Source: a virus. Taken from it: DNA of 64,000 bases. Position 1 is the stretch's first letter; each line of letters starts with the position of its first letter. A model generated the notes under the pieces. It did no database searches and was not told the DNA's origin. It was given only the letters and a program-made list of their open reading frames with translations. This document shows positions 1 through 9,518 of the stretch, in pieces. The DNA is taken from the IMG/VR virus record IMGVR_UViG_3300049846_002561, positions 1 to 64,000 of that record; one strand, given 5' to 3'. The position numbers were made by a program, and so were the translations under genes.

Positions 1-73
1 GCGAAGTTGCCCTTGCAGATACTTCAAATTAAGCACAAAGTTGATGGGCAATTTTGCAAATACCTTGTTACCT
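1..73. repeat. attC-like hairpin site 0, truncated by the window start
   Basis: Arm GCGAAGTTGCCC (1-12) pairs imperfectly with GGGCAATTTTGC (46-57), followed by GTT at 67-69. The loop GATACTTCAAATTAAGCACAAA resembles the loop of the 1122-1215 site. Confidence 0.65.
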
Positions 74-140
74 GCTGGTGCGGTTTATTTAGCAGGATTT
101 TGATTTGAAAACGAAAAGAAAATTTAAAAAGTTTTAGAGT

Positions 141-848
141 ATGAAATATATGGGAAGTAAAAATCGGATAGCAAATGAAATACTACCAATAATGTTAAAA
201 GAACGAGGGCAAAGAACTTGGGTTGAACCTTTTGTTGGCGGTGGAAATATGATTGATAAGGTGGAAGGCAAAAGAATAGGTGCAGACATTAACCACTATT
301 TAATTGATGCTTTAATTGCCATTAGAGATTGTGTGTCGGACTTGCCAAAAAACAACAAAGAATTTACTGAAGAAGATTATAAGTCTTTAAGAAAAAGTGA
401 TGATTATAAATACAAAGGTTATGCAGGATTTGCGTTTTCTTATAGTGGTAAGTGGCTTGGCGGATGGCGTAGAGATGGTAAAAACAAACGTGATTATGTA
501 AACGAAGCATATAAAAACGCAGTAAATCAAAGCCCACTATTGCAAGGTGTGAGATTAGTAAATGAAAGTTATTTGGATTTACAAGTGCCTGATAACAGCT
601 TGATTTATTGCGACCCACCTTATGAGGGAACAACCAAATATAAAGACGACTTTAATCACGTTGTTTTTTGGCAATGGTGCAGAGATATGGCAAGTAAAGG
701 ACATATCATATTTGTATCTGAATATAATGCACCTAATGATTTTGAGTGCGTTTGGCAAAAGGAAATAGTAAGTTCTTTGACCCAAGATACAGGTAGTAAG
801 AAAGCGGTGGAAAAACTTTTTAAATTTTCTCCCACAAATGTTCAATAG
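141..848 (+). CDS. DNA N6-adenine methyltransferase (Dam/D12 class), cassette 1
   Basis: N-terminal KYMGSK, SAM-binding EPFVGGG and catalytic YCDPPY. Confidence 0.9.
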   Translation: MKYMGSKNRIANEILPIMLKERGQRTWVEPFVGGGNMIDKVEGKRIGADINHYLIDALIAIRDCVSDLPKNNKEFTEEDYKSLRKSDDYKYKGYAGFAFSYSGKWLGGWRRDGKNKRDYVNEAYKNAVNQSPLLQGVRLVNESYLDLQVPDNSLIYCDPPYEGTTKYKDDFNHVVFWQWCRDMASKGHIIFVSEYNAPNDFECVWQKEIVSSLTQDTGSKKAVEKLFKFSPTNVQ

Positions 849-869
849 TAGCAGTATCGTAGCACTTGC

Positions 870-924
870 AGGTAACGACCGACAATTTGAGCCGTTTTCA
901 ATGGCTTCAAATTGTATGTTATGC
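870..924. repeat. attC-like hairpin site 1 (55 bp)
   Basis: AGGTAAC - GACCG - ACAATTTGAGCC...GGCTTCAAATTGT (one extra unpaired base) - AT - GTTATGC, lying just after the methylase stop. Confidence 0.75.
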
Positions 925-989
925 TTAGTTTTTTGAACGATTTGTCGAACTAAGAAAATTTTTACGGAATAGACATTAAAACCAATAAT

Positions 990-1121
990 ATGACAACAAT
1001 AGAAAAAGCAAAACAACTGACTAACGAAGGTCATAAAATTTTCGTAATCGAAGCTAACGCAATTTGGTATCACGACAAATTTGATGGTAAATTGAGGTGT
1101 ATTTATCTCTCAAAAAATTGA
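990..1121 (+). CDS. 43-aa hypothetical protein, cassette 2 (not in the ORF track)
   Basis: MTTIEKAKQLTNEGHKIFVIEANAIWYHDKFDGKLRCIYLSKN; A-rich leader; stop lies directly before the GCATAAC box. Confidence 0.6.
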   Translation: MTTIEKAKQLTNEGHKIFVIEANAIWYHDKFDGKLRCIYLSKN

Positions 1122-1215
1122 GCATAACGTTTTCGGGCTTGGCGAAGTGCCGCTACTCGAAACTTAAAATTTAGCACTAACTGTCCTGCGGCATTTTGCC
1201 AAACCCGTGTTATGG
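1122..1215. repeat. attC-like hairpin site 2 (94 bp)
   Basis: GCATAAC - GTTTT - arm 1134-1153 pairing 17/20 with arm 1188-1207 - T - GTTATGG. Confidence 0.8.
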
Positions 1216-1264
1216 GATAGTTTTAAAAACCTTTTAGGGTGGGCATTAAAAAACGATAAATAAA

Positions 1265-1960
1265 ATGAGAATAATAGCATTAGGAGATACACATGGCAGA
1301 ACTGATTGGAAACAAATTACTGCCAATGAAAAATTTGACAAGGTTGTTTTTATAGGCGACTATTTTGATACACATGAAGATATTTCGCCTGAACAACAAA
1401 AGGAAAACTTCAAGGATATTGTCGCTTATAAAAAAGCGAATATGGATAAGGTTGTGTTACTATTTGGCAACCACGATTTCCATTATTTAAGAAGCGTAAA
1501 TGAAACTTATAGCGGTTATCAGCAATGGCAAAAAACAGATATACAGGAATTGTTGCATCCTGCTATTGATGCAGAATTATTACAGATGTGTTTTGTTTGG
1601 CAGAATATGCTTTTTTGCCACGCTGGGGTAACGCAAACTTGGTGCGACAACAACCTTGTGCAAAAACAATTTATTGAGCAATCAATTAACGACCTTTTTA
1701 AATTTAAACCAAATTCGTTCAGATTTACAAGTGGCAGAAATCACAGCCCTTACGGAGATGATGTTGAGCAATCACCAATTTGGGTAAGACCAAACAGTTT
1801 GTTAAGGGATAGAATTGAAGGATTTGTTCAAGTAGTTGGACATACTACTCAAAACAAATTAGTGATTACCGATGATGTGATTTTGATTGATACGCTTGGA
1901 ACATCTGGGGAGTATTTAATTTGGGATAACTTTCAACTGAGCGTGGGGGAAGGTTTTTAA
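1265..1960 (+). CDS. Calcineurin-like metallophosphoesterase, cassette 3
   Basis: GDTHG, GDYFD, GNHD, HAG and GHT motifs in canonical order. Confidence 0.9.
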   Translation: MRIIALGDTHGRTDWKQITANEKFDKVVFIGDYFDTHEDISPEQQKENFKDIVAYKKANMDKVVLLFGNHDFHYLRSVNETYSGYQQWQKTDIQELLHPAIDAELLQMCFVWQNMLFCHAGVTQTWCDNNLVQKQFIEQSINDLFKFKPNSFRFTSGRNHSPYGDDVEQSPIWVRPNSLLRDRIEGFVQVVGHTTQNKLVITDDVILIDTLGTSGEYLIWDNFQLSVGEGF

Positions 1961-2009
1961 AATTTCCCATAACTACTGTATACCCGCCATACCTCAAATT
2001 CAATAAGAT

Positions 2010-3771: not shown

Positions 3772-6678
3772 GTGGTAGAGAATCCATATTGGTTCCCGCA
3801 AGGGGGGTCCGGGGGATCCGGAAGCGTAACGTCAGCGAACTTCGTTTCACTGCAGGCAAAGGTAGACGCCGTAAGCAACGCCGTCTCCATCGTGTCCGCC
3901 GCAACTGCCTCCGTAGACGCTAGGATAGATTCCGTTTCCAACGCCGTATCCACGGAAGTCGCAAGTCGCACGAGCGCCGATAATGCCCTTAGCGCAGCGA
4001 TCGCCGCCCTGAGCAACTCCCTCTCTTTAGTACACGATGGACTAATACTCAACGAAGTGTCCGCGGACACCTCAGCAGCACCAACGAGTGCCGTAAAAAT
4101 ATACGCCACCGACGAAAATGGAATATCACGGACATTCATCGTCGATGCAGACGGAAGACGAATACAAATATCCAGAGATCAAACGCTCGTAGTCCGAAAC
4201 GGAAACGCAGGCAACATCGTGGCTGGACAAGCCGTATACCTGGCAAGCGCAACAGGTGGATTCATAAAGGTAGACCTCGCCAAGGCAGACTCCCTTTCCG
4301 CCATGGCCGCCATCGGCATAGTGCGCGATGCCGTGATCTCCGCAAATGCCTTCGGTGTTATAATAACAGAAGGTGTACTCAGCATCAATACCGCAACATA
4401 CACGGATGGCGATAAACTATACGTGGATACCTCCTCAGCAGGGGGGCTCACAAACGTAAAGCCCACATACCCAAACTACCCACAGCAAGTAGGAACGGTA
4501 ATGAACGCCGGAGTAAACGGAGGCCTGTTCGTACACATAGAGGAGGTCGATATCCTAGACAACATCTCCGCCCTAAGCAACTCTATAAGCGTACTCAACC
4601 AACAAGTGTCAGCGCTGTCAGCAAGGGTGGACGCCAACTCCGCGCAAATGGCATCGGCCAACGACGCTATAAGCAACGCCGTGTCGATCGTTTCCGTTGC
4701 CGCCGCCAATGCTCTATCAAATGTCAACGCCGTAAGCCAGGCTCTATCCGTGGAAACAGCAAGTAGGGTCTCAGCAGTCAATATAGTAAGTAATGCGGTT
4801 TCTATTGTCAGTGTAGCAGCTGCCAATGCCCTCTCCGTAGCGAACGCAGCATCGAACGCCGTGAGCGTGGAAACAGCTAACCGGATAAGTGCCGTAAATG
4901 TAGTTTCTAATTCACTGAGCGTAGAAATAGCCAACAGGATAAGTGCCGTTAACGCTGTGTCAAACGCCGTTTCCATTGTTTCTGTAGTGGCAGCTAATGC
5001 CACTAGCATTGCTAATGCCGCTAGCAATGCAGCGTCTATTGTAAGTGCGGCAGTCGTTTCTGTAAGCGCTGCCCTTGAAAGTCATATTAACACGGTTTCA
5101 AATGCCGTATCGCTAGTGTCTGTCGTCGCTGCAAACGCCCTTTCGGTGGCTAACGCGGCTTCTAACGCAGCATCGGTAGTAAGTGCCGCCCAGGCTGCCA
5201 CAAGCGCCGCCGTAACGTCAGTGAACAATAGGATATCAGCGGTAAGCACAGACCTTACGTCTTTTAAAGCCTCCCTAGACAATTTCGGAGATGTCTCCGC
5301 TACCGGAGCAACAAGCGGACAGGTACTTACCTTTATCAGTGGGCAGTGGACAGCCCAAACACCAACCGCCGGGTCTGGATCGGTAACTTCAGCGGAACTA
5401 AGCGCCGCCGTGGCCGCACTCTCCAACTCTATAAGCGTAGTGAGTGCCGCCACCGCACTTAAAAATCCAATCGTCACCGTTCAGGAAGAAGGCTCTAATG
5501 TCGCAAGTAGCCCAACAATCATTAACTTCAGGGGTCCCGGAGTAAGCGTAAAAACAAGCGCCGGCGTAGTGATCGTAAGCGTAGCAACGGGCGGAGGCGG
5601 CGGATCCGTTACCTCGGCCAACTTCGCCTCCCTACAAAGTGTAGTGCAGGCAAATAGCGCGCAGATGACATCCGCAGACAATGCGATAAGTAATGCCGTC
5701 TCCATCGTCAGCGTCGCCCAGGCCGCCACATCCGCGGCAGTGACAAGCGTAAATAACAGGGTGTCCGCAATAAGCACAGACGTTACATCTATTCATGACA
5801 CCCTTAGCGATGTTGTATCTGACCTAGCCGTTTTGTCTGTAAATGTTTCCGCGTTATCCACGCGCTTATCAGCATTATCATCTCAGGTAAATACAAATTC
5901 GGCGCAGATGACCTCCGCAGACAACGCAATAAGCAACGCCGTGAGCGTTCTGTCAGTGGTCGTTTCAAATGAGATCTCCGCCAGGACTGCCGCGAGCGCC
6001 GCGCTAGAATCTCACATCAATACCGTATCAAACGCCGTGAGCGTGCTCAGTGCCGCCTTTAGCAATCAGCTGTCTATAATATCTGTTGCCATTGACGGTT
6101 TAAGCAACAGGGTATCCGTTCTCTCCGTTAACGTTGACACGTTAAGCAATAACGTTTCCGCACTAAGCGCGGCCATTGTCGTTCTGTCAAACCAAGTGTC
6201 TGCCGCTGGAGGTTTTCAACAGAAAGTGGTTCAGGGAACTCAGTCTATATCAACTTCGGCACTCACTCAGATAAGCGGACTTAGCGTGTCTGTAGCTGCT
6301 AATGGAGCATACAAGATAGAGGCATACTTGATTTACAACGTATCTGCTATATCAGCTTCCGGATATAACCTTGCCCTCGTTGCTTCCGGATTAACTCAAC
6401 AAACGGCGAATGGAAATTGGCAATTTACCTCAGCGCAACCTGTATCAACGGGCGGAACAGCCATTGCCCTAGTAAATCAACCATTCAACGGACTTAGTGG
6501 CGCTGCCATTTCCGTAACTTCTGCCGGAACAGCTCAACTAACATTTTCAAAGCTAGAAGCCATAGTGGTCGCAAGTACAACGGGTGGAACGCTCGTTATA
6601 CAAGGAAAGACAACGGTTGCATCAAACTCCCTCTACATATACAAGGGATCCTACATTAAAGCCTTCAAAATAATTTAA
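3772..6678 (+). CDS. Ser/Ala/Val/Asn-rich repetitive fibre or adhesin-like protein, probably a virion appendage
   Basis: 968 aa; many SNAVSIVSVAAANA repeats; repeated GSVTSA linkers; beta domain with AGQAVYL...AIGIV...GDKLYV typical of phage fibre/cement modules; beta-rich C-terminal head. Confidence 0.7.
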   Translation: MVENPYWFPQGGSGGSGSVTSANFVSLQAKVDAVSNAVSIVSAATASVDARIDSVSNAVSTEVASRTSADNALSAAIAALSNSLSLVHDGLILNEVSADTSAAPTSAVKIYATDENGISRTFIVDADGRRIQISRDQTLVVRNGNAGNIVAGQAVYLASATGGFIKVDLAKADSLSAMAAIGIVRDAVISANAFGVIITEGVLSINTATYTDGDKLYVDTSSAGGLTNVKPTYPNYPQQVGTVMNAGVNGGLFVHIEEVDILDNISALSNSISVLNQQVSALSARVDANSAQMASANDAISNAVSIVSVAAANALSNVNAVSQALSVETASRVSAVNIVSNAVSIVSVAAANALSVANAASNAVSVETANRISAVNVVSNSLSVEIANRISAVNAVSNAVSIVSVVAANATSIANAASNAASIVSAAVVSVSAALESHINTVSNAVSLVSVVAANALSVANAASNAASVVSAAQAATSAAVTSVNNRISAVSTDLTSFKASLDNFGDVSATGATSGQVLTFISGQWTAQTPTAGSGSVTSAELSAAVAALSNSISVVSAATALKNPIVTVQEEGSNVASSPTIINFRGPGVSVKTSAGVVIVSVATGGGGGSVTSANFASLQSVVQANSAQMTSADNAISNAVSIVSVAQAATSAAVTSVNNRVSAISTDVTSIHDTLSDVVSDLAVLSVNVSALSTRLSALSSQVNTNSAQMTSADNAISNAVSVLSVVVSNEISARTAASAALESHINTVSNAVSVLSAAFSNQLSIISVAIDGLSNRVSVLSVNVDTLSNNVSALSAAIVVLSNQVSAAGGFQQKVVQGTQSISTSALTQISGLSVSVAANGAYKIEAYLIYNVSAISASGYNLALVASGLTQQTANGNWQFTSAQPVSTGGTAIALVNQPFNGLSGAAISVTSAGTAQLTFSKLEAIVVASTTGGTLVIQGKTTVASNSLYIYKGSYIKAFKII

Positions 6679-6717: not shown

Positions 6718-6888
6718 ATGGCAAAAGTAGGCAAAAAAGATCTTCGCATCGTAGACCCTCCTGACGACGTTTGGAATTACGTTATTGCTAGATCTAAGAA
6801 GAGTCTTAGATCTCTACCAAATGAATTAATAATCATAATCAGAGAACATCAAGAGCAAGAATGGAAGAAAAAGAAAAGAAGCACCTGA
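6718..6888 (+). CDS. Arc/MetJ-like ribbon-helix-helix DNA-binding protein (not in the ORF track)
   Basis: MAKVGKKDLRIVDPPDDVWNYVIARSKKSLRSLPNELIIIIRE resembles the Arc LR.P......A....RS...E....I pattern. Confidence 0.6.
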   Translation: MAKVGKKDLRIVDPPDDVWNYVIARSKKSLRSLPNELIIIIREHQEQEWKKKKRST

Positions 6889-9518
6889 ACATTGAAGAGA
6901 ACATGAAGATCTCTTACTGCATCCCGGTAGAGCTCCGCGATGAGCAGATAAAAATAAACATCGGTAAAGTAAAGGAGCGACTATCTCCATCTACTGAACT
7001 GATAAAGGAGCCAATCGCATTAGTTAGCTTTGGCCCTTCTTTAAACGATACGTGGAGGGAGCTCAAGAAGTTCAATCACATCATCACCTGCTCTGGAGCG
7101 CACAAGTTCCTTCTTGACAAAGGCCTCTCCCCAAATAATTTCAAGCACTGGTATCACGCCGACCTAGATCCAAGGGAGTATAAAATAAAGATACTCGGAG
7201 AGCCAAGGCACGGCATCGAGTACCTTATCGCCTCAACAATTCACCCGAAGTATTTAGATGCCCTAAAAGGCTACGACGTTAAGCTGTGGCATATATTTGC
7301 TACCGACGATGAGGCAGAGAGGGTTCTTCCCAGAGGAGAGTGGAAGTTTACCGGTGGATCATCCGTTGGATTGAGAACGTTTACACTGGCAAGGGCACTA
7401 GGATATACCGACTTCCACGTGTTTGGAATGGATGGTAGCATGAGGCCAAATGAGACTCATACCACAGAGCACCCAAATCCACCACCTCAATCTGCGGAGA
7501 CAGAGTATAAGGGGAAGAAATATATCACTACGCCATCAATGCTCCACGTAGCCAAGGAAACCTTTAAGGAAATGGATCAGCTCCCTGACTGTAAGTTTAA
7601 GTTCTACGGAGAAGGACTCGTTCAGGATATGGCAAAGGACTACGTTCCAAATGTAAAAAGAGGCTCTAGTCTTGCTTTTGTGTCCGAGGAAACGATTTCT
7701 AAGGAGTATATTGAACTCAATAGGAAGTTACACGAGGACAACCCCTCCTACGGAATGGGAGGTAGCAAGTACGTGAATACGGTTCTTGAGCTCTCTAAAG
7801 CAAATAAGACTACTAGCATCCTTGATTATGGATGCGGAAAGGGAATGCTCGCAAAAGGACTTCCTTTCCCTATATGGGAGTATGATCCCGCCGTTCTGGG
7901 TAAAACAACGGTTCCCAAACCAGCAGATATAGTTGTGTGTACGGATGTTCTTGAGCATATAGAACAGGACAAACTGATGATCGTGCTTCAGGATTTGAAG
8001 AGGTGTGTGAAGCAGGTTGGATACTTTGTGATAAGCACAAGGAAGGCCGTGAAGACCTATGCCAATGGCGAAAATGCTCACCTCATTGTTCAGGGCAAAG
8101 ATTGGTGGGAAAAGAAACTCAAGAAGTATTTTGAAGTTGGAACAGTAATTGAAAAAGAAAAGGAATGTGAGCTTCACGTTATTGTTGGCCCAAAGAAAGA
8201 GGTTCAGCCGGAGATAACCACTATTGAAAAAGGTGGACTGAAGTTTAAGTTCTACACTCCAAATGATACTACAAGGTGGAGGGCAAACACGCTGTTCATA
8301 AAAGAGCCGACAACGATAGATTGGCTAGACTCAATAAAGCATGGGGAGGTGTTGTATGATGTTGGCGCTAACGTTGGATCTTATACCGTGTATGCCGGGG
8401 TGCGAGGGGTAAAGGTATACGCATTTGAACCGGAGGCAGAGAACTATGCCATGCTCGTGAGAAACATGAGGTTAAATGGGCTAGATCCTACAGCCTACTG
8501 CGTTGCGTGTTCTGATAAGCAGAGAACCGTTAGCCTGTCTGATTATAAGTTTGAATTTGGAATGCTCAATTTAAGTATGCCGGGCGCTGGAGGATCGTGT
8601 CATAGCTTTAATGAAAAGGAAAGCAACATTAAACAGGGATGCTTTTCGACTTGCATAGACAACATTGCGGGGAAACTGTTTTGTCTTCCAAAGCCCGATC
8701 ACATTAAAATTGACGTGGATGGAATAGAGCATTGCGTAGTGTTTGGAGCTGCGAACACCCTGAAAGATGTGAAGTCGATCATTGTGGAGATTGATCCAAA
8801 TTCAGAAAATCATAAGAAGATGATTTTAGAACTAGAAAGACTTGGGTTTTACTATGACCAAGCTCAAGTTGATAGGGCAACAAGAAAAGAAGGGAATTTC
8901 AAAGGATATGCAGAATATGTATTCAGAAAAAATGTCTTAAAGACGTCGGCTCATGTTTATCCGTTTTTTGTTTTAGATAATGTGTTTACAGAAAACTACG
9001 ATAAGATAGTTGAAGTTTCACGAAATTTAAAGTATCAATCCCTTGAAGAGGCAAGGGGCACAAAGGGATATCCAGAGAGATATGTAGCCGGCGTTGATGA
9101 AAAATCTTTTTTACTGATAAAAAACGGCATCAATCAGCTAAAAAAAGAAATCTGTGAAGAGTTCAATCTTAACGCTGAAGACTATGATACAGACCTTCTG
9201 TTCATAAACGATAAGCCAGGATACAAGATAGGAGTCCACAGAGACAGGCTAGACAAAGTAGTAACGGCTTTGATATACCTTCCTGAAAACACAAACAATA
9301 GTCATGCCGGGACGTCCATCTATAAACCAAAGAAAGAAGGATTTTCTTGCCCTGTCGGTAAACACTATGGATTTGATGATTTTGATAAGGTTGAAACTAT
9401 TGGGTACGTGCCAAACAGGGCGTTTGTATTCCTCAACACAGATCACTCCTTCCATGGCGTAGAGCCTTGTGATGTGGAAAGACATGTTTTGCTAATGAAT
9501 TTAAACAAGAAAAAATGA
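6861..9518 (+). CDS. Four-domain fusion: Maf/DUF115-like transferase + class I SAM methyltransferase + FkbM methyltransferase + 2OG-Fe(II) oxygenase
   Basis: VSFGPSL...GGSSVG...FGMDGS (Maf/MptE-like); LDYGCGKG...DVLEHI; YDVGANVG...AFEP...IKIDVDG (FkbM); HRD...FHGV...R (2OG-Fe). Confidence 0.8.
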   Translation: MEEKEKKHLNIEENMKISYCIPVELRDEQIKINIGKVKERLSPSTELIKEPIALVSFGPSLNDTWRELKKFNHIITCSGAHKFLLDKGLSPNNFKHWYHADLDPREYKIKILGEPRHGIEYLIASTIHPKYLDALKGYDVKLWHIFATDDEAERVLPRGEWKFTGGSSVGLRTFTLARALGYTDFHVFGMDGSMRPNETHTTEHPNPPPQSAETEYKGKKYITTPSMLHVAKETFKEMDQLPDCKFKFYGEGLVQDMAKDYVPNVKRGSSLAFVSEETISKEYIELNRKLHEDNPSYGMGGSKYVNTVLELSKANKTTSILDYGCGKGMLAKGLPFPIWEYDPAVLGKTTVPKPADIVVCTDVLEHIEQDKLMIVLQDLKRCVKQVGYFVISTRKAVKTYANGENAHLIVQGKDWWEKKLKKYFEVGTVIEKEKECELHVIVGPKKEVQPEITTIEKGGLKFKFYTPNDTTRWRANTLFIKEPTTIDWLDSIKHGEVLYDVGANVGSYTVYAGVRGVKVYAFEPEAENYAMLVRNMRLNGLDPTAYCVACSDKQRTVSLSDYKFEFGMLNLSMPGAGGSCHSFNEKESNIKQGCFSTCIDNIAGKLFCLPKPDHIKIDVDGIEHCVVFGAANTLKDVKSIIVEIDPNSENHKKMILELERLGFYYDQAQVDRATRKEGNFKGYAEYVFRKNVLKTSAHVYPFFVLDNVFTENYDKIVEVSRNLKYQSLEEARGTKGYPERYVAGVDEKSFLLIKNGINQLKKEICEEFNLNAEDYDTDLLFINDKPGYKIGVHRDRLDKVVTALIYLPENTNNSHAGTSIYKPKKEGFSCPVGKHYGFDDFDKVETIGYVPNRAFVFLNTDHSFHGVEPCDVERHVLLMNLNKKK

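What the first reader, a model, noticed from the sequence alone, without database searches (positions are those of the whole stretch)
1..1995. Integron-like gene-cassette array inside a phage genome
Seen: three single genes (adenine methylase, 43-aa mini-gene, metallophosphoesterase) are each separated by imperfect palindromes of the form AAC - 5 nt - arm...arm - 1 to 2 nt - GTT (1-73 partial, 870-924, 1122-1215). Sites 0 and 2 share loop sequence. The block is more AT-rich than the rest of the genome and runs off the left edge. Known: AAC...GTT-bounded hairpins between single genes are the signature of integron attC sites, which tyrosine recombinases act on as ssDNA. Inference: this phage carries a shufflable cassette array of accessory genes. 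No integrase is visible in the window, so it lies upstream or is borrowed from the host. I do not know of such a system described in Bacteroidota phages.
Basis: partly seen in the sequence, partly recalled or inferred. Interest (0 to 1): 0.88.

Follow-up and report, generated by a model that had tools for sequence, protein, structure and literature searches.

The report
Hairpin-separated gene cassette array in phage
The left end of this phage genome holds three single-gene cassettes separated by hairpin sites that belong to a widespread, integron-like gene-shuffling system of phages, which in many other phages sits next to its own recombinase gene.

Summary
Window 1-1973 holds three single-gene cassettes (Dam-type methylase, a 43-aa ORF, a metallophosphoesterase). 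They are separated by hairpins of the form TAAC, 5 nt, stem-loop-stem, 1-2 nt, GTTA.

Models built only from other phages find all three sites on the + strand and nothing else in 64 kb. Each cassette carries its own inverted ends.

The site family is widespread in phage contigs:
- 323 sites in 1.1 Mb against 19 in shuffled sequence, in arrays of up to 11.
- Cassette ends pair with each other, not across a site.
- Homology breakpoints fall at the TAAC and GTTA cores.

A 268-aa Xer/IntI-clade tyrosine recombinase lies directly downstream of the arrays. Of 52 recombinase-selected loci, 51 have sites upstream; of 74, 1 has a site downstream.

This phage has no recombinase, so its array resembles a CALIN (a cluster of integron attC sites with no integrase nearby). 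The same site family is in Polaribacter phage P12002L, where such a cluster is published (Qi 2023).

It is not a canonical integron. The recombinase lacks the IntI-specific domain, it sits at the 3' end of the array, and the hairpins rarely travel with the upstream gene.

Best reading, about 0.65: a mirror-image, integron-like recombination platform native to phages. Recombination itself is inferred, not shown.

The parts
1..70 (+). Site 0: a hairpin site of the ~88-nt class, cut at its 5' end by the contig start. Its R' core GTTA is at 66-69.
   Evidence: R2 gives 46.9 bits, E 1.5e-5, model positions 17-89, flagged 5'-cut. A contig of run X6 carries the missing left arm with TAAC plus 5 nt plus arm (loose end at place 10).
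66..876 (+). Cassette 1, running from GTTA to TAAC. It holds a D12/Dam-type N6-adenine methylase (CDS 141-848). Its own inverted ends are 67-81 with 862-876 and 117-135 with 812-830.
   Evidence: The same unit (window 60-877) is in LR745206.1 and L088; there the outer ends read nearly identical (read) while the matched stretches are 73-88% identical and the middle finds no match.
873..921 (+). Site 1: a short-class hairpin site (TAAC, 5 nt, stem, conserved loop, stem, 2 nt, GTTA).
   Evidence: R1 gives 37.6 bits, E 9e-7. DNA fold z is -4.7.
918..1128 (+). Cassette 2: a 43-aa ORF (990-1121) with no family. Its own inverted ends are 918-941 with 1105-1128.
   Evidence: It is the only GTTA/TAAC pair in the genome with at least 10 of 12 flanking bases complementary.
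1125..1212 (+). Site 2: a hairpin site of the ~88-nt class with a 20-bp stem that includes G.T pairs on the top strand. Its loop motif is shared with site 0.
   Evidence: R2 gives 64.4 bits, E 1.3e-8. Fold z is -3.5.
1209..1973 (+). Cassette 3: a calcineurin-like metallophosphoesterase (CDS 1265-1960). Its own inverted ends are 1209-1228 with 1954-1973.
   Evidence: It is 89% identical to L126/L127 from the ATG to TAAC at 1973 and not beyond.
1970..1983 (+). Array end: the last TAAC is joined to a TA-rich word with no hairpin. It matches the loose pattern that marks array ends next to the recombinase in other phages.
   Evidence: The window fits the loose pattern only, and no recombinase follows it.

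Best explanation
Window 1-1973 is a recombinase-less array of three cassettes. It belongs to a phage-borne, integron-like site-specific recombination system.

**Anatomy of a unit.** A unit is a hairpin module followed by a gene body.
- The hairpin module reads G, 4 nt, stem-loop-stem, 1-2 nt.
- The gene body starts with GTTA, 5 variable nt, then AGT, and ends with ATT, 5 variable nt, then TAAC.
- The two body ends are complementary to each other and differ from cassette to cassette.

**Proposed fold (inferred).** In a folded single strand (the gene-sense strand), TAAC pairs with GTTA and the cassette's own ends extend that stem. This gives a structure-defined site analogous to a folded attC.

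**Proposed reaction (inferred).** In many other phages, mostly large ones, a 265-277-aa Xer/IntI-clade tyrosine recombinase is encoded directly after the last cassette. It lies behind a TAAC-plus-TA-rich junction that plays the part of attI. I infer that this enzyme exchanges strands at the TAAC core, and less often at the GTTA core. That would insert, excise and swap cassettes.

**This phage.** It has no such enzyme. Its array was either assembled in an ancestor or is acted on in trans during co-infection.

**Shown and inferred.** The anatomy, the covariation, the junction positions and the gene linkage are shown. The chemistry, the single-stranded substrate and any present-day activity are inferred.
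For: 1. **Real family.** My structure scan finds 323 sites in 1.11 Mb of 121 sequences (120 loci and the window's own genome) against 19 in shuffled sequence. It hit only 55 stretches in 596 Gb of bacterial genomes, and 21 of those 55 are structured.
2. **Stems covary.** In the short class, 97.2% of cells pair, 11 of 12 inner pairs show double changes, and the covariation score is 0.587 against 0.158 in shuffles (0 of 500 reach it) and at most 0.133 when slid. The ~88-nt class gives 96.0% and 0.579 against 0.180.
3. **Cassette-own ends.** The 10 nt after GTTA of site i match the reverse complement of the 10 nt before TAAC of site i+1 at 8 or more positions in 53% of 189 pairs. The figure is 0 of 321 for the two flanks of one site and 1.5% for random pairs. 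The first 5 nt are perfect in 110 of 189 against 4 of 321.
4. **Breakpoints.** Of 237 ends of homology between loci, 97 lie within 12 nt of a site, against 11.6 expected.
5. **Window cassettes in other contexts** have boundaries at the cores. Of the 24 listed loose ends of metagenome contigs, 12 lie within 2 nt of a core (92 more were not shown).
6. **Recombinase linkage.**
   - In 16 of 16 loci it follows the last site on the same strand.
   - 20 of 44 assessable arrays end at it, and none has it inside or upstream.
   - In the reciprocal test, 51 of 52 recombinase-selected loci have a site within 3 kb upstream. The figure is 38 of 39 after removing loci that overlap the hairpin-selected set.
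   - Only 1 of 74 has a site downstream.
   - 37 of 52 carry the TAAC-plus-TA-rich junction within 200 nt of the gene start.
7. **The enzyme looks intact.** The RHR-H-Y residues align with solved Xer and IntI structures.
8. **Strand bias.** There are 362 G.T/T.G pairs against 38 A.C/C.A in 175 unique sites.
9. **Published assay.** One predicted attC of phage P12002L was recombined by IntI1 into attI1 (PMC9892861, section 3.4). P12002L carries this site family around its methylase genes.
Against: - No recombination product, circle or empty site was observed. Only assembled contigs could be laid, not reads.
- The window's genome, the 634-kb phage and, as published, P12002L have no such recombinase, so arrays persist without it.
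- 24 of 44 assessable arrays do not end at the recombinase.
- The enzyme lacks the IntI-specific domain that the integron literature ties to the single-strand pathway (PMC4792948, abstract).
- Hairpins are often unlinked to both neighbours. At long sites, homology starts at R'' in 7 cases and at R' in 10. One crossover point therefore does not explain everything.
- A strong G.U-type bias on the sense strand, and ORF starts inside the long loops, would also fit an RNA-level role.
- My site scan counts G.T as half a pair and rejects A.C, which inflates the strand bias for outer stem positions.
- The 80 recombinase-selected loci are the closest 80 of 246 relatives.
Confidence: 0.65

Rival explanations
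1. The hairpins and paired cassette ends are RNA-level elements, such as processing, stability or translational control signals on a polycistronic early transcript. Cassettes are swapped by homologous or short-homology recombination at the conserved hairpins, as proposed for the PeSL terminator/promoter motifs in the hyperplastic regions of T4-like phages. On this reading the nearby recombinase has another task, such as dimer resolution or integration.
For: - All sites are co-oriented with the genes.
- Wobble pairs favour the sense strand, 362 to 38, and some G.U positions are conserved in 43 of 47 sequences.
- Long loops hold an ATG, and the frame runs through the 3' arm into the cassette.
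- The commonest 48-nt hairpin is letter-identical in 78 of 131 pattern matches across 72 loci, which is long enough for phage annealing proteins.
- Arrays persist in phages without the recombinase.
- There is a PeSL precedent (PMC4122927 and PMC2839356; abstract or search listing only).
Against: - Homologous exchange does not explain why each cassette's two ends covary with each other.
- It does not explain why homology ends at the 4-nt cores even when the neighbouring hairpins have unrelated stems.
- It does not explain the 51-of-52 against 1-of-74 placement of the recombinase, with a precise TAAC junction.
- The window's hairpins are not followed by T-runs. Sigma-70-like promoters and terminator-like sites are at or below shuffle level in 1-2400: 7 against 8.5, and 1 against 1.4.
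- No Rfam family matches.
- The two readings are not exclusive.
Confidence: 0.22
2. Each gene is a small transposon-like element with terminal inverted repeats. A transposase supplied in trans moves it into hairpin targets.
For: Every cassette has inverted ends of 15-30 nt that begin with GTTA and end with TAAC.
Against: - The inverted ends are cassette-specific and covary, instead of being one conserved transposase-binding sequence.
- No target-site duplication is seen at the junctions.
- The window's genome has no Y1 transposase and no serine recombinase.
- The enzyme actually linked to arrays is a tyrosine recombinase.
Confidence: 0.03
3. The hairpins are ordinary intergenic terminators, or chance palindromes in AT-rich DNA, and the resemblance to attC is coincidental.
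For: The region is AT-rich, and 78 inverted pairs of 10 nt or more are found in 2.3 kb.
Against: - Independent models find exactly these three sites in 64 kb, with E from 1e-8 to 1e-5.
- The family shows covariation.
- There are no T-runs after the hairpins.
- Junctions recur at the cores in other genomes.
Confidence: 0.02

Closest known systems
Clusters of attC sites lacking an integron-integrase (CALINs) in virulent phages, in particular Polaribacter phage P12002L (Qi et al. 2023, PMC9892861)
   Same: - Both are arrays of single genes, with DNA methylases prominent, separated by AAC...GTT-bounded hairpins, with no integrase in the phage.
- P12002L carries the same site family. R1 scores its sites at 47.6 and 28.3 bits.
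- P12002L has cassette-own inverted ends of about 30 nt and an array that ends at a bare TAAC.
- One P12002L site was recombined by IntI1 (paper, section 3.4).
   Different: - The paper treats them as stray integron parts. In the parts I read (abstract, section 3.4 and passages matching my search terms; supplements closed) it does not describe a dedicated phage recombinase, the cassette-own ends or the wider family.
- I could not see its supplements, so the identity of its attC1 and attC2 with the sites I located is inferred from their position around the two methylase genes.
Bacterial integrons (intI, attI, Pc, and cassettes made of an ORF plus attC)
   Same: - Sites are defined by structure, with conserved AAC/GTT cores and free, covarying stems.
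- Each cassette's two ends are complementary.
- One mostly unknown, short ORF sits in each cassette.
- An adjacent tyrosine recombinase of the Xer/IntI clade carries a SAM_4 N-domain.
- A simple non-hairpin site lies next to the recombinase gene.
   Different: - The recombinase has 265-277 aa, lacks the IntI insertion and is below the NCBIfam cut-off (151 against 265 bits).
- It sits at the 3' end of the array in the same orientation as the genes, not upstream and divergent.
- Hairpins are rarely linked to the upstream gene (2 of 23 homology ends). They are linked more often to the downstream one, and long loops hold the downstream gene's start.
- Wobble pairs favour the sense strand, and no extrahelical bases were seen.
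- The hosts are phage genomes. In bacterial genomes the pattern is at about chance level.
PeSL (promoter-early stem-loop) motifs of T4-like phages (Arbiol 2010, PMC2839356; Comeau 2014, PMC4122927)
   Same: Both are stem-loop-containing intergenic motifs that flank small ORFs of unknown function in plastic regions of phage genomes, and both are proposed to mediate modular gene shuffling.
   Different: - PeSLs are described as composite terminator/promoter sequences that act through homologous recombination (abstract of PMC4122927).
- Here the stems vary freely, the cassette ends covary, junctions sit at 4-nt cores, and a tyrosine recombinase is linked.
Xer recombination of folded single-stranded phage DNA (CTX-phi at dif; recalled, not checked here)
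   Same: A Xer-family enzyme acts on a hairpin formed by one DNA strand.
   Different: That system uses host XerCD to integrate a whole filamentous phage. It does not involve cassette arrays or a phage-encoded enzyme.

Membership tests
Integron (sensu IntegronFinder; defining features recalled) | An integron integrase: a tyrosine recombinase with the IntI-specific additional domain. | tested here: not met
   - The window's genome has no PF00589 match at E<=1.
- The array-linked recombinase of other phages scores 151 bits against TIGR02249, whose cut-off is 265, and the match is split in two.
- Against IntI4 (2a3v) it has 29 residues where IntI4 has 77.
Integron (sensu IntegronFinder; defining features recalled) | attC sites: imperfect palindromes with R''(..AAC) and R'(GTT..) cores, paired L boxes, a variable loop and extrahelical bases. 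| tested here: inconclusive
   - The AAC/GTT cores, the unequal spacers (5 nt against 1-2 nt), the covarying stems and the variable loops (9-88 nt) are all present.
- Extrahelical bases were not seen. Conserved G.T pairs appear instead.
- The attC covariance model of IntegronFinder/HattCI is not available here.
- Qi 2023 report HattCI/Infernal hits in P12002L.
Integron (sensu IntegronFinder; defining features recalled) | A cassette is an ORF followed by its own attC; attI and the divergent intI lie at the 5' end of the array. | tested here: not met
   - At long sites, homology ends before the hairpin in 21 cases and after it in 2.
- The recombinase is at the 3' end of the array and co-oriented with it.
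CALIN (two or more attC sites with no integrase nearby) | At least two sites close together and no integron integrase. | tested here: met
   Three sites lie within 1.2 kb and there is no tyrosine recombinase in 73.5 kb. This holds only if the sites are accepted as attC-like.
Phage hairpin-cassette arrays with a Xer-like recombinase (the family defined here) | Site architecture of TAAC, 5 nt, stem-loop-stem, 1-2 nt, GTTA, on the gene-sense strand. | tested here: met
   R1 and R2 were trained without the window. They hit 873-921, 1125-1212 and 1-70, all on the + strand.
Phage hairpin-cassette arrays with a Xer-like recombinase (the family defined here) | Cassette-own complementary ends next to GTTA and TAAC. 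| tested here: met
   Inverted repeats I1, I2, I3, I16 and I18 each flank one gene.
Phage hairpin-cassette arrays with a Xer-like recombinase (the family defined here) | The array ends at TAAC plus a TA-rich word, followed by the recombinase gene. | tested here: inconclusive
   The window at 1970-1983 fits the loose pattern. An 83-aa HTH-like ORF follows rather than a recombinase.
PeSL motifs of T4-like phages | A terminator stem-loop plus an early sigma-70 promoter, conserved as sequence. | tested here: not met
   In 1-2400, promoter-like sites number 7 against 8.5 in shuffles. The hairpins are not called as terminators. The stems are not conserved as sequence.
Known RNA families (Rfam 15) | A match at the gathering score. 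| tested here: not met
   There are 0 matches in 64 kb. At E<=10 only chance-level miRNA-type hits appear.

The most novel reading that the evidence does not exclude
Phages have an integron analogue of their own, built as a mirror image of the bacterial one.

- A small Xer-family recombinase without the IntI domain captures hairpin-led cassettes at a TAAC junction just upstream of its own gene.
- It uses the folded gene-sense strand. Conserved G.T pairs, rather than extrahelical bases, choose the strand.
- Some hairpin modules also supply the start codon and a leader peptide, so recombination can make in-frame gene fusions.

Recombinase-less arrays, such as the one in this 73-kb phage, in P12002L and in a 634-kb phage, would then be satellites served in trans during co-infection. 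That would make a common cassette pool of methylases, Mom and hundreds of unknown small genes flow between unrelated phages.
Probability: 0.45. Interest if true: 0.9.

Novelty: new variant of a known kind. Interest (0 to 1): 0.8.

Why it matters
Integrons are regarded as bacterial devices, and phage genome plasticity is mostly put down to homologous or illegitimate recombination. This system would change both views in several ways.

- **A defined mechanism for phage plastic regions.** A site-specific cassette system native to phages would explain how the ORFan-rich plastic regions of large phages are built. At least 246 relatives of the recombinase are present in IMG/VR.
- **A route for anti-restriction genes.** It would explain how methylases and Mom move between unrelated phages.
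- **A test case for enzyme evolution.** It offers a natural experiment on how Xer-type enzymes came to use folded-DNA substrates without the IntI domain.
- **A source of new tools.** It could supply structure-defined recombination sites.

For this window specifically, it explains the odd AT-rich left end. It also predicts that the three genes are dispensable, exchangeable accessory genes.

Tried and rejected
**Searches that led nowhere or were rejected**
- Rfam gave nothing, either at gathering score or at E<=10.
- Circular closure of the contig is rejected. There is no terminal overlap, and the contig end does not supply the missing left arm of site 0. The array's left boundary is therefore unknown.
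- I found no close relatives of the whole phage. A gain/loss comparison between sister genomes was therefore not possible.
- A search of the window's genome for more cassette-type inverted ends found only the mini-gene pair.
- The recombinase as an ordinary cassette is rejected. The complement of its 5' flank is not found downstream of it in 12 of 12 loci.
- A simple integron polarity, with the hairpin tied to the upstream gene, is rejected.
- tRNA-like words in some loops are not called tRNAs.

**Weak or unusable evidence**
- Joints (for example 1251-1260 to 1943, and 942 to 1112) suggest other cargo between the same cassette ends. Their sides are only 19-30 nt at 90% likeness, so I use them only as a hint.
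- Parts of the window without contig cover in runs X2, X6 and X9 say nothing.

**Limits of the literature check**
- Searches found no description of a phage array with a dedicated Xer-like recombinase. This holds only for the open library that was searched.
- Supplements were closed. Those of PMC9892861 hold the coordinates and sequences of the P12002L attC sites, which bear on my identification of them.
Full report
**1. What is in the window**

The window is the first 64,000 nt of a single 73,491-nt virus contig. CheckV estimates it 100% complete, and it has no end repeats. It is a tailed phage: it has a P22-like portal, a DnaB-type helicase with a BT4734-like N-domain, a beta clamp and an SNF2 helicase.

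Bases 1-1973 hold three + strand ORFs:
- a D12 adenine methylase (141-848);
- a 43-aa ORF (990-1121);
- a calcineurin-like phosphoesterase (1265-1960).

Between them lie two complete hairpins, at 873-921 and 1125-1212. A third hairpin (1-70) is cut by the contig start. All three have the form TAAC, 5 nt, stem-loop-stem, 1-2 nt, GTTA.

The complete hairpins fold far better than shuffles, and the top strand folds better than the bottom strand. The region has GC 0.35 against about 0.45 elsewhere.

The three longest inverted repeats in 1-2300 are not the hairpins. They are pairs that each bracket one gene, starting at GTTA and ending at TAAC.

**2. The sites belong to a large family**

A 634-kb uncultured phage (LR745206.1) carries the same methylase unit. 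The match runs from window 60 to 877, that is from just before GTTA to just after TAAC. The unit's ends are nearly identical, while the matched inner stretches are 77-78% identical and the middle of the gene (window 288-602) finds no match. In that phage it sits in a run of four such hairpins whose stems are unrelated but whose loop is conserved.

It hit only 55 stretches in 596 Gb of bacterial genomes. Of those 55, 21 have a structured site, mostly on short MAG contigs.

In the 121 sequences then held (120 fetched loci and the window's own genome), a structure-only scan found 323 sites against 19 in shuffled sequence. The sites fall into length classes near 48, 79, 88, 115 and 125 nt and form arrays of up to 11.

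The stems covary strongly. Covariance models trained without the window, the 634-kb phage or P12002L recover the window's three sites and nothing else there. They report site 0 as 5'-truncated. A contig from another metagenome carries the missing left arm of site 0.

**3. The cassette rules**

- **Ends pair within a cassette.** Across 189 neighbouring site pairs, the bases after GTTA are complementary to the bases before the next TAAC. The two flanks of one site are not complementary. This is the relation that holds between R' and R'' of one integron cassette. It means pairing of the two ends of a cassette is under selection.
- **A fixed wobble.** One position in the paired ends is always G opposite T on the sense strand.
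- **Cassettes are very diverse.** There are 198 cassettes in 161 clusters, and the median ORF among the 154 clusters that have one of at least 40 aa is 91.5 aa. Of 150 representative ORFs, matches fall in only 18 Pfam families, led by DNA methylases and Mom.
- **The same cassette occurs with different hairpins on either side**, and the junctions lie exactly at the cores.
- **Homology breakpoints are eight-fold enriched at sites**.
- **Linkage of the hairpin.** At long sites, homology usually stops before the hairpin (21 against 2). It starts either before it (7) or after it (10). So the hairpin is seldom tied to the upstream gene, is sometimes tied to the downstream one, and is often independent of both.
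- **Long loops can encode the next gene's start.** They can hold an ATG whose frame runs through the 3' arm and GTTA into the cassette. One cassette is fused in frame to two different leaders.

**4. The linked enzyme**

L006 encodes a 268-aa tyrosine recombinase (PF00589, 6e-36, plus the SAM_4 N-domain) right after its array. Its position is highly regular:
- Homologues (41-80% identical) follow the last site, co-oriented, in 16 of 16 loci.
- 20 of 44 assessable arrays end at it, and it never lies inside or upstream of an array.
- In the reciprocal test I fetched loci by the recombinase alone: 246 relatives, of which the closest 80 were kept.
- Of 52 such loci with 2 kb or more upstream, 51 have a site within 3 kb upstream, and 43 have two or more.
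- The figure is 38 of 39 after removing loci that overlap the hairpin-selected set.
- Only 1 of 74 has a site downstream.

The last cassette ends with its own 3' end and TAAC. That TAAC is joined not to a hairpin but to a conserved TA-rich word 40-100 nt before the recombinase start. This is the position an attI-like site would hold.

The enzyme is in the Xer/IntI clade but below every curated cut-off: XerA-type 184 bits against 220, and integron integrase 151 against 265. Its closest solved relatives are a XerC-like protein and IntI4. Where IntI4 has 77 residues it has 29, so it lacks the IntI-specific insertion. The catalytic residues align.

**5. The window's array in this frame**

All three units fit the family (hairpin, GTTA, body, TAAC). 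The array ends at 1970-1983 with TAAC plus a word that fits the loose array-end pattern. An HTH-like ORF follows, not a recombinase.

The genome has no tyrosine or serine recombinase, no Y1 transposase and no relative of the array-linked enzyme.

The phosphoesterase cassette recurs at 89% identity in L126/L127 up to TAAC at 1973 and no further. There, and in a metagenome contig, it is followed by a hairpin site. In the run that holds 96% of the stretch, contigs branch at 66, 876, 1124/1125 and 1212/1213. These are single contigs, so they are weak taken one by one.

**6. Comparison with what is known**

Qi et al. 2023 (PMC9892861; abstract, section 3.4 and matching passages read) screened 10,705 phage genomes.
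- They found 17 clusters of attC sites without an integrase. One is in Polaribacter phage P12002L and encodes two methylases.
- IntI1 recombined one of its two predicted sites into attI1.

I find three sites of this family in P12002L, around gp55, gp54 and gp53. The cassette-own ends there are 30 nt long, and the array ends at a bare TAAC.

The window's array is a new member of a published kind.

I did not find the following in print:
- the wider system with its dedicated non-IntI recombinase;
- the 3' placement of that recombinase;
- the cassette-own ends;
- the sense-strand bias;
- the leader-carrying hairpins.

PeSL motifs (PMC4122927 abstract; PMC2839356 search listing) are the nearest phage analogue in function. 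They are described as sequence-conserved terminator/promoter units that act through homologous recombination.

**7. Mechanism and odds**

I put 0.65 on site-specific recombination by the linked recombinase. On this reading the reaction occurs at the TAAC core, and less often at the GTTA core, on a folded sense strand. The window's array would be a passive or trans-served member.

I put 0.22 on a mainly RNA-level role with homologous exchange. That reading explains the strand bias and the coding loops. It does not explain the covarying ends, the core-precise junctions or the recombinase placement. The two readings may both hold.

No recombination product was seen, so activity remains inferred.

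**8. Host**

A Bacteroidota host is plausible but not shown.
- P12002L infects Polaribacter.
- The methylase resembles those of Flavobacteriia phages, and also those of Vibrio phages.
- The helicase has a BT4734-like domain.
- An Adhaeribacter isolate assembly carries structured sites.

Noticed in passing
window 3772-6678: A 968-aa ORF rich in Ser/Ala/Val with many near-repeats of a 15-20-residue unit. Its GC is 0.50-0.53, next to the 0.35-GC array. It may be a fibre-like protein.
   Followed up: no
window 6861-9518: An 885-aa fusion of an MptE-like domain with two methyltransferase domains (Methyltransf_23 and FkbM).
   Followed up: no
G000 contig end, 72,000-73,491 (outside the window): Long G-runs and two small HTH-like ORFs. 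A further ORF is open at the contig end and would read into window frame 1 if the contig were closed. The contig end does not supply the missing arm of site 0, so the assembly is not closed there.
   Followed up: partly
L053, L047, L050, L057, L085 and other loci: long sites of 115-136 nt: The hairpin loops hold an ATG and a conserved leader peptide, whose last residues are encoded by the 3' arm. The frame continues through GTTA into the cassette. One cassette (cluster 5, in L056 and L057) is fused in frame to two different leaders.
   Followed up: partly
L072 3823-3950; also long sites in L008 and L027: The loops of some long sites contain words like the tRNA T-loop consensus. ARAGORN calls no tRNA there.
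   Followed up: partly
L072 7736-9299; L008 5309-10103: Array-bearing contigs carry tRNA clusters. L072 has 12 tRNAs plus a tmRNA. L008 has 11 predicted tRNAs, one of them with a predicted 4-base anticodon.
   Followed up: no
L172, L177, L159 (Adhaeribacter terrigena BT258 assembly): Structured sites of the family lie on three contigs of an isolate's assembly, one of them a 372-kb contig. This may be a prophage or a chromosomal array, and it hints at a Bacteroidota host.
   Followed up: partly
window 60-145 and 800-877, against L001 4005-4081 and 4760-4836: The two ends of the methylase cassette read almost identical in the window and in the 634-kb phage (read by eye), while the inner matched stretches are 77-78% identical and the middle of the gene finds no match. 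Metagenome contigs also hint at other cargo between the same ends of cassettes 2 and 3 (weak joints). The cassette ends may behave as conserved shells.
   Followed up: partly
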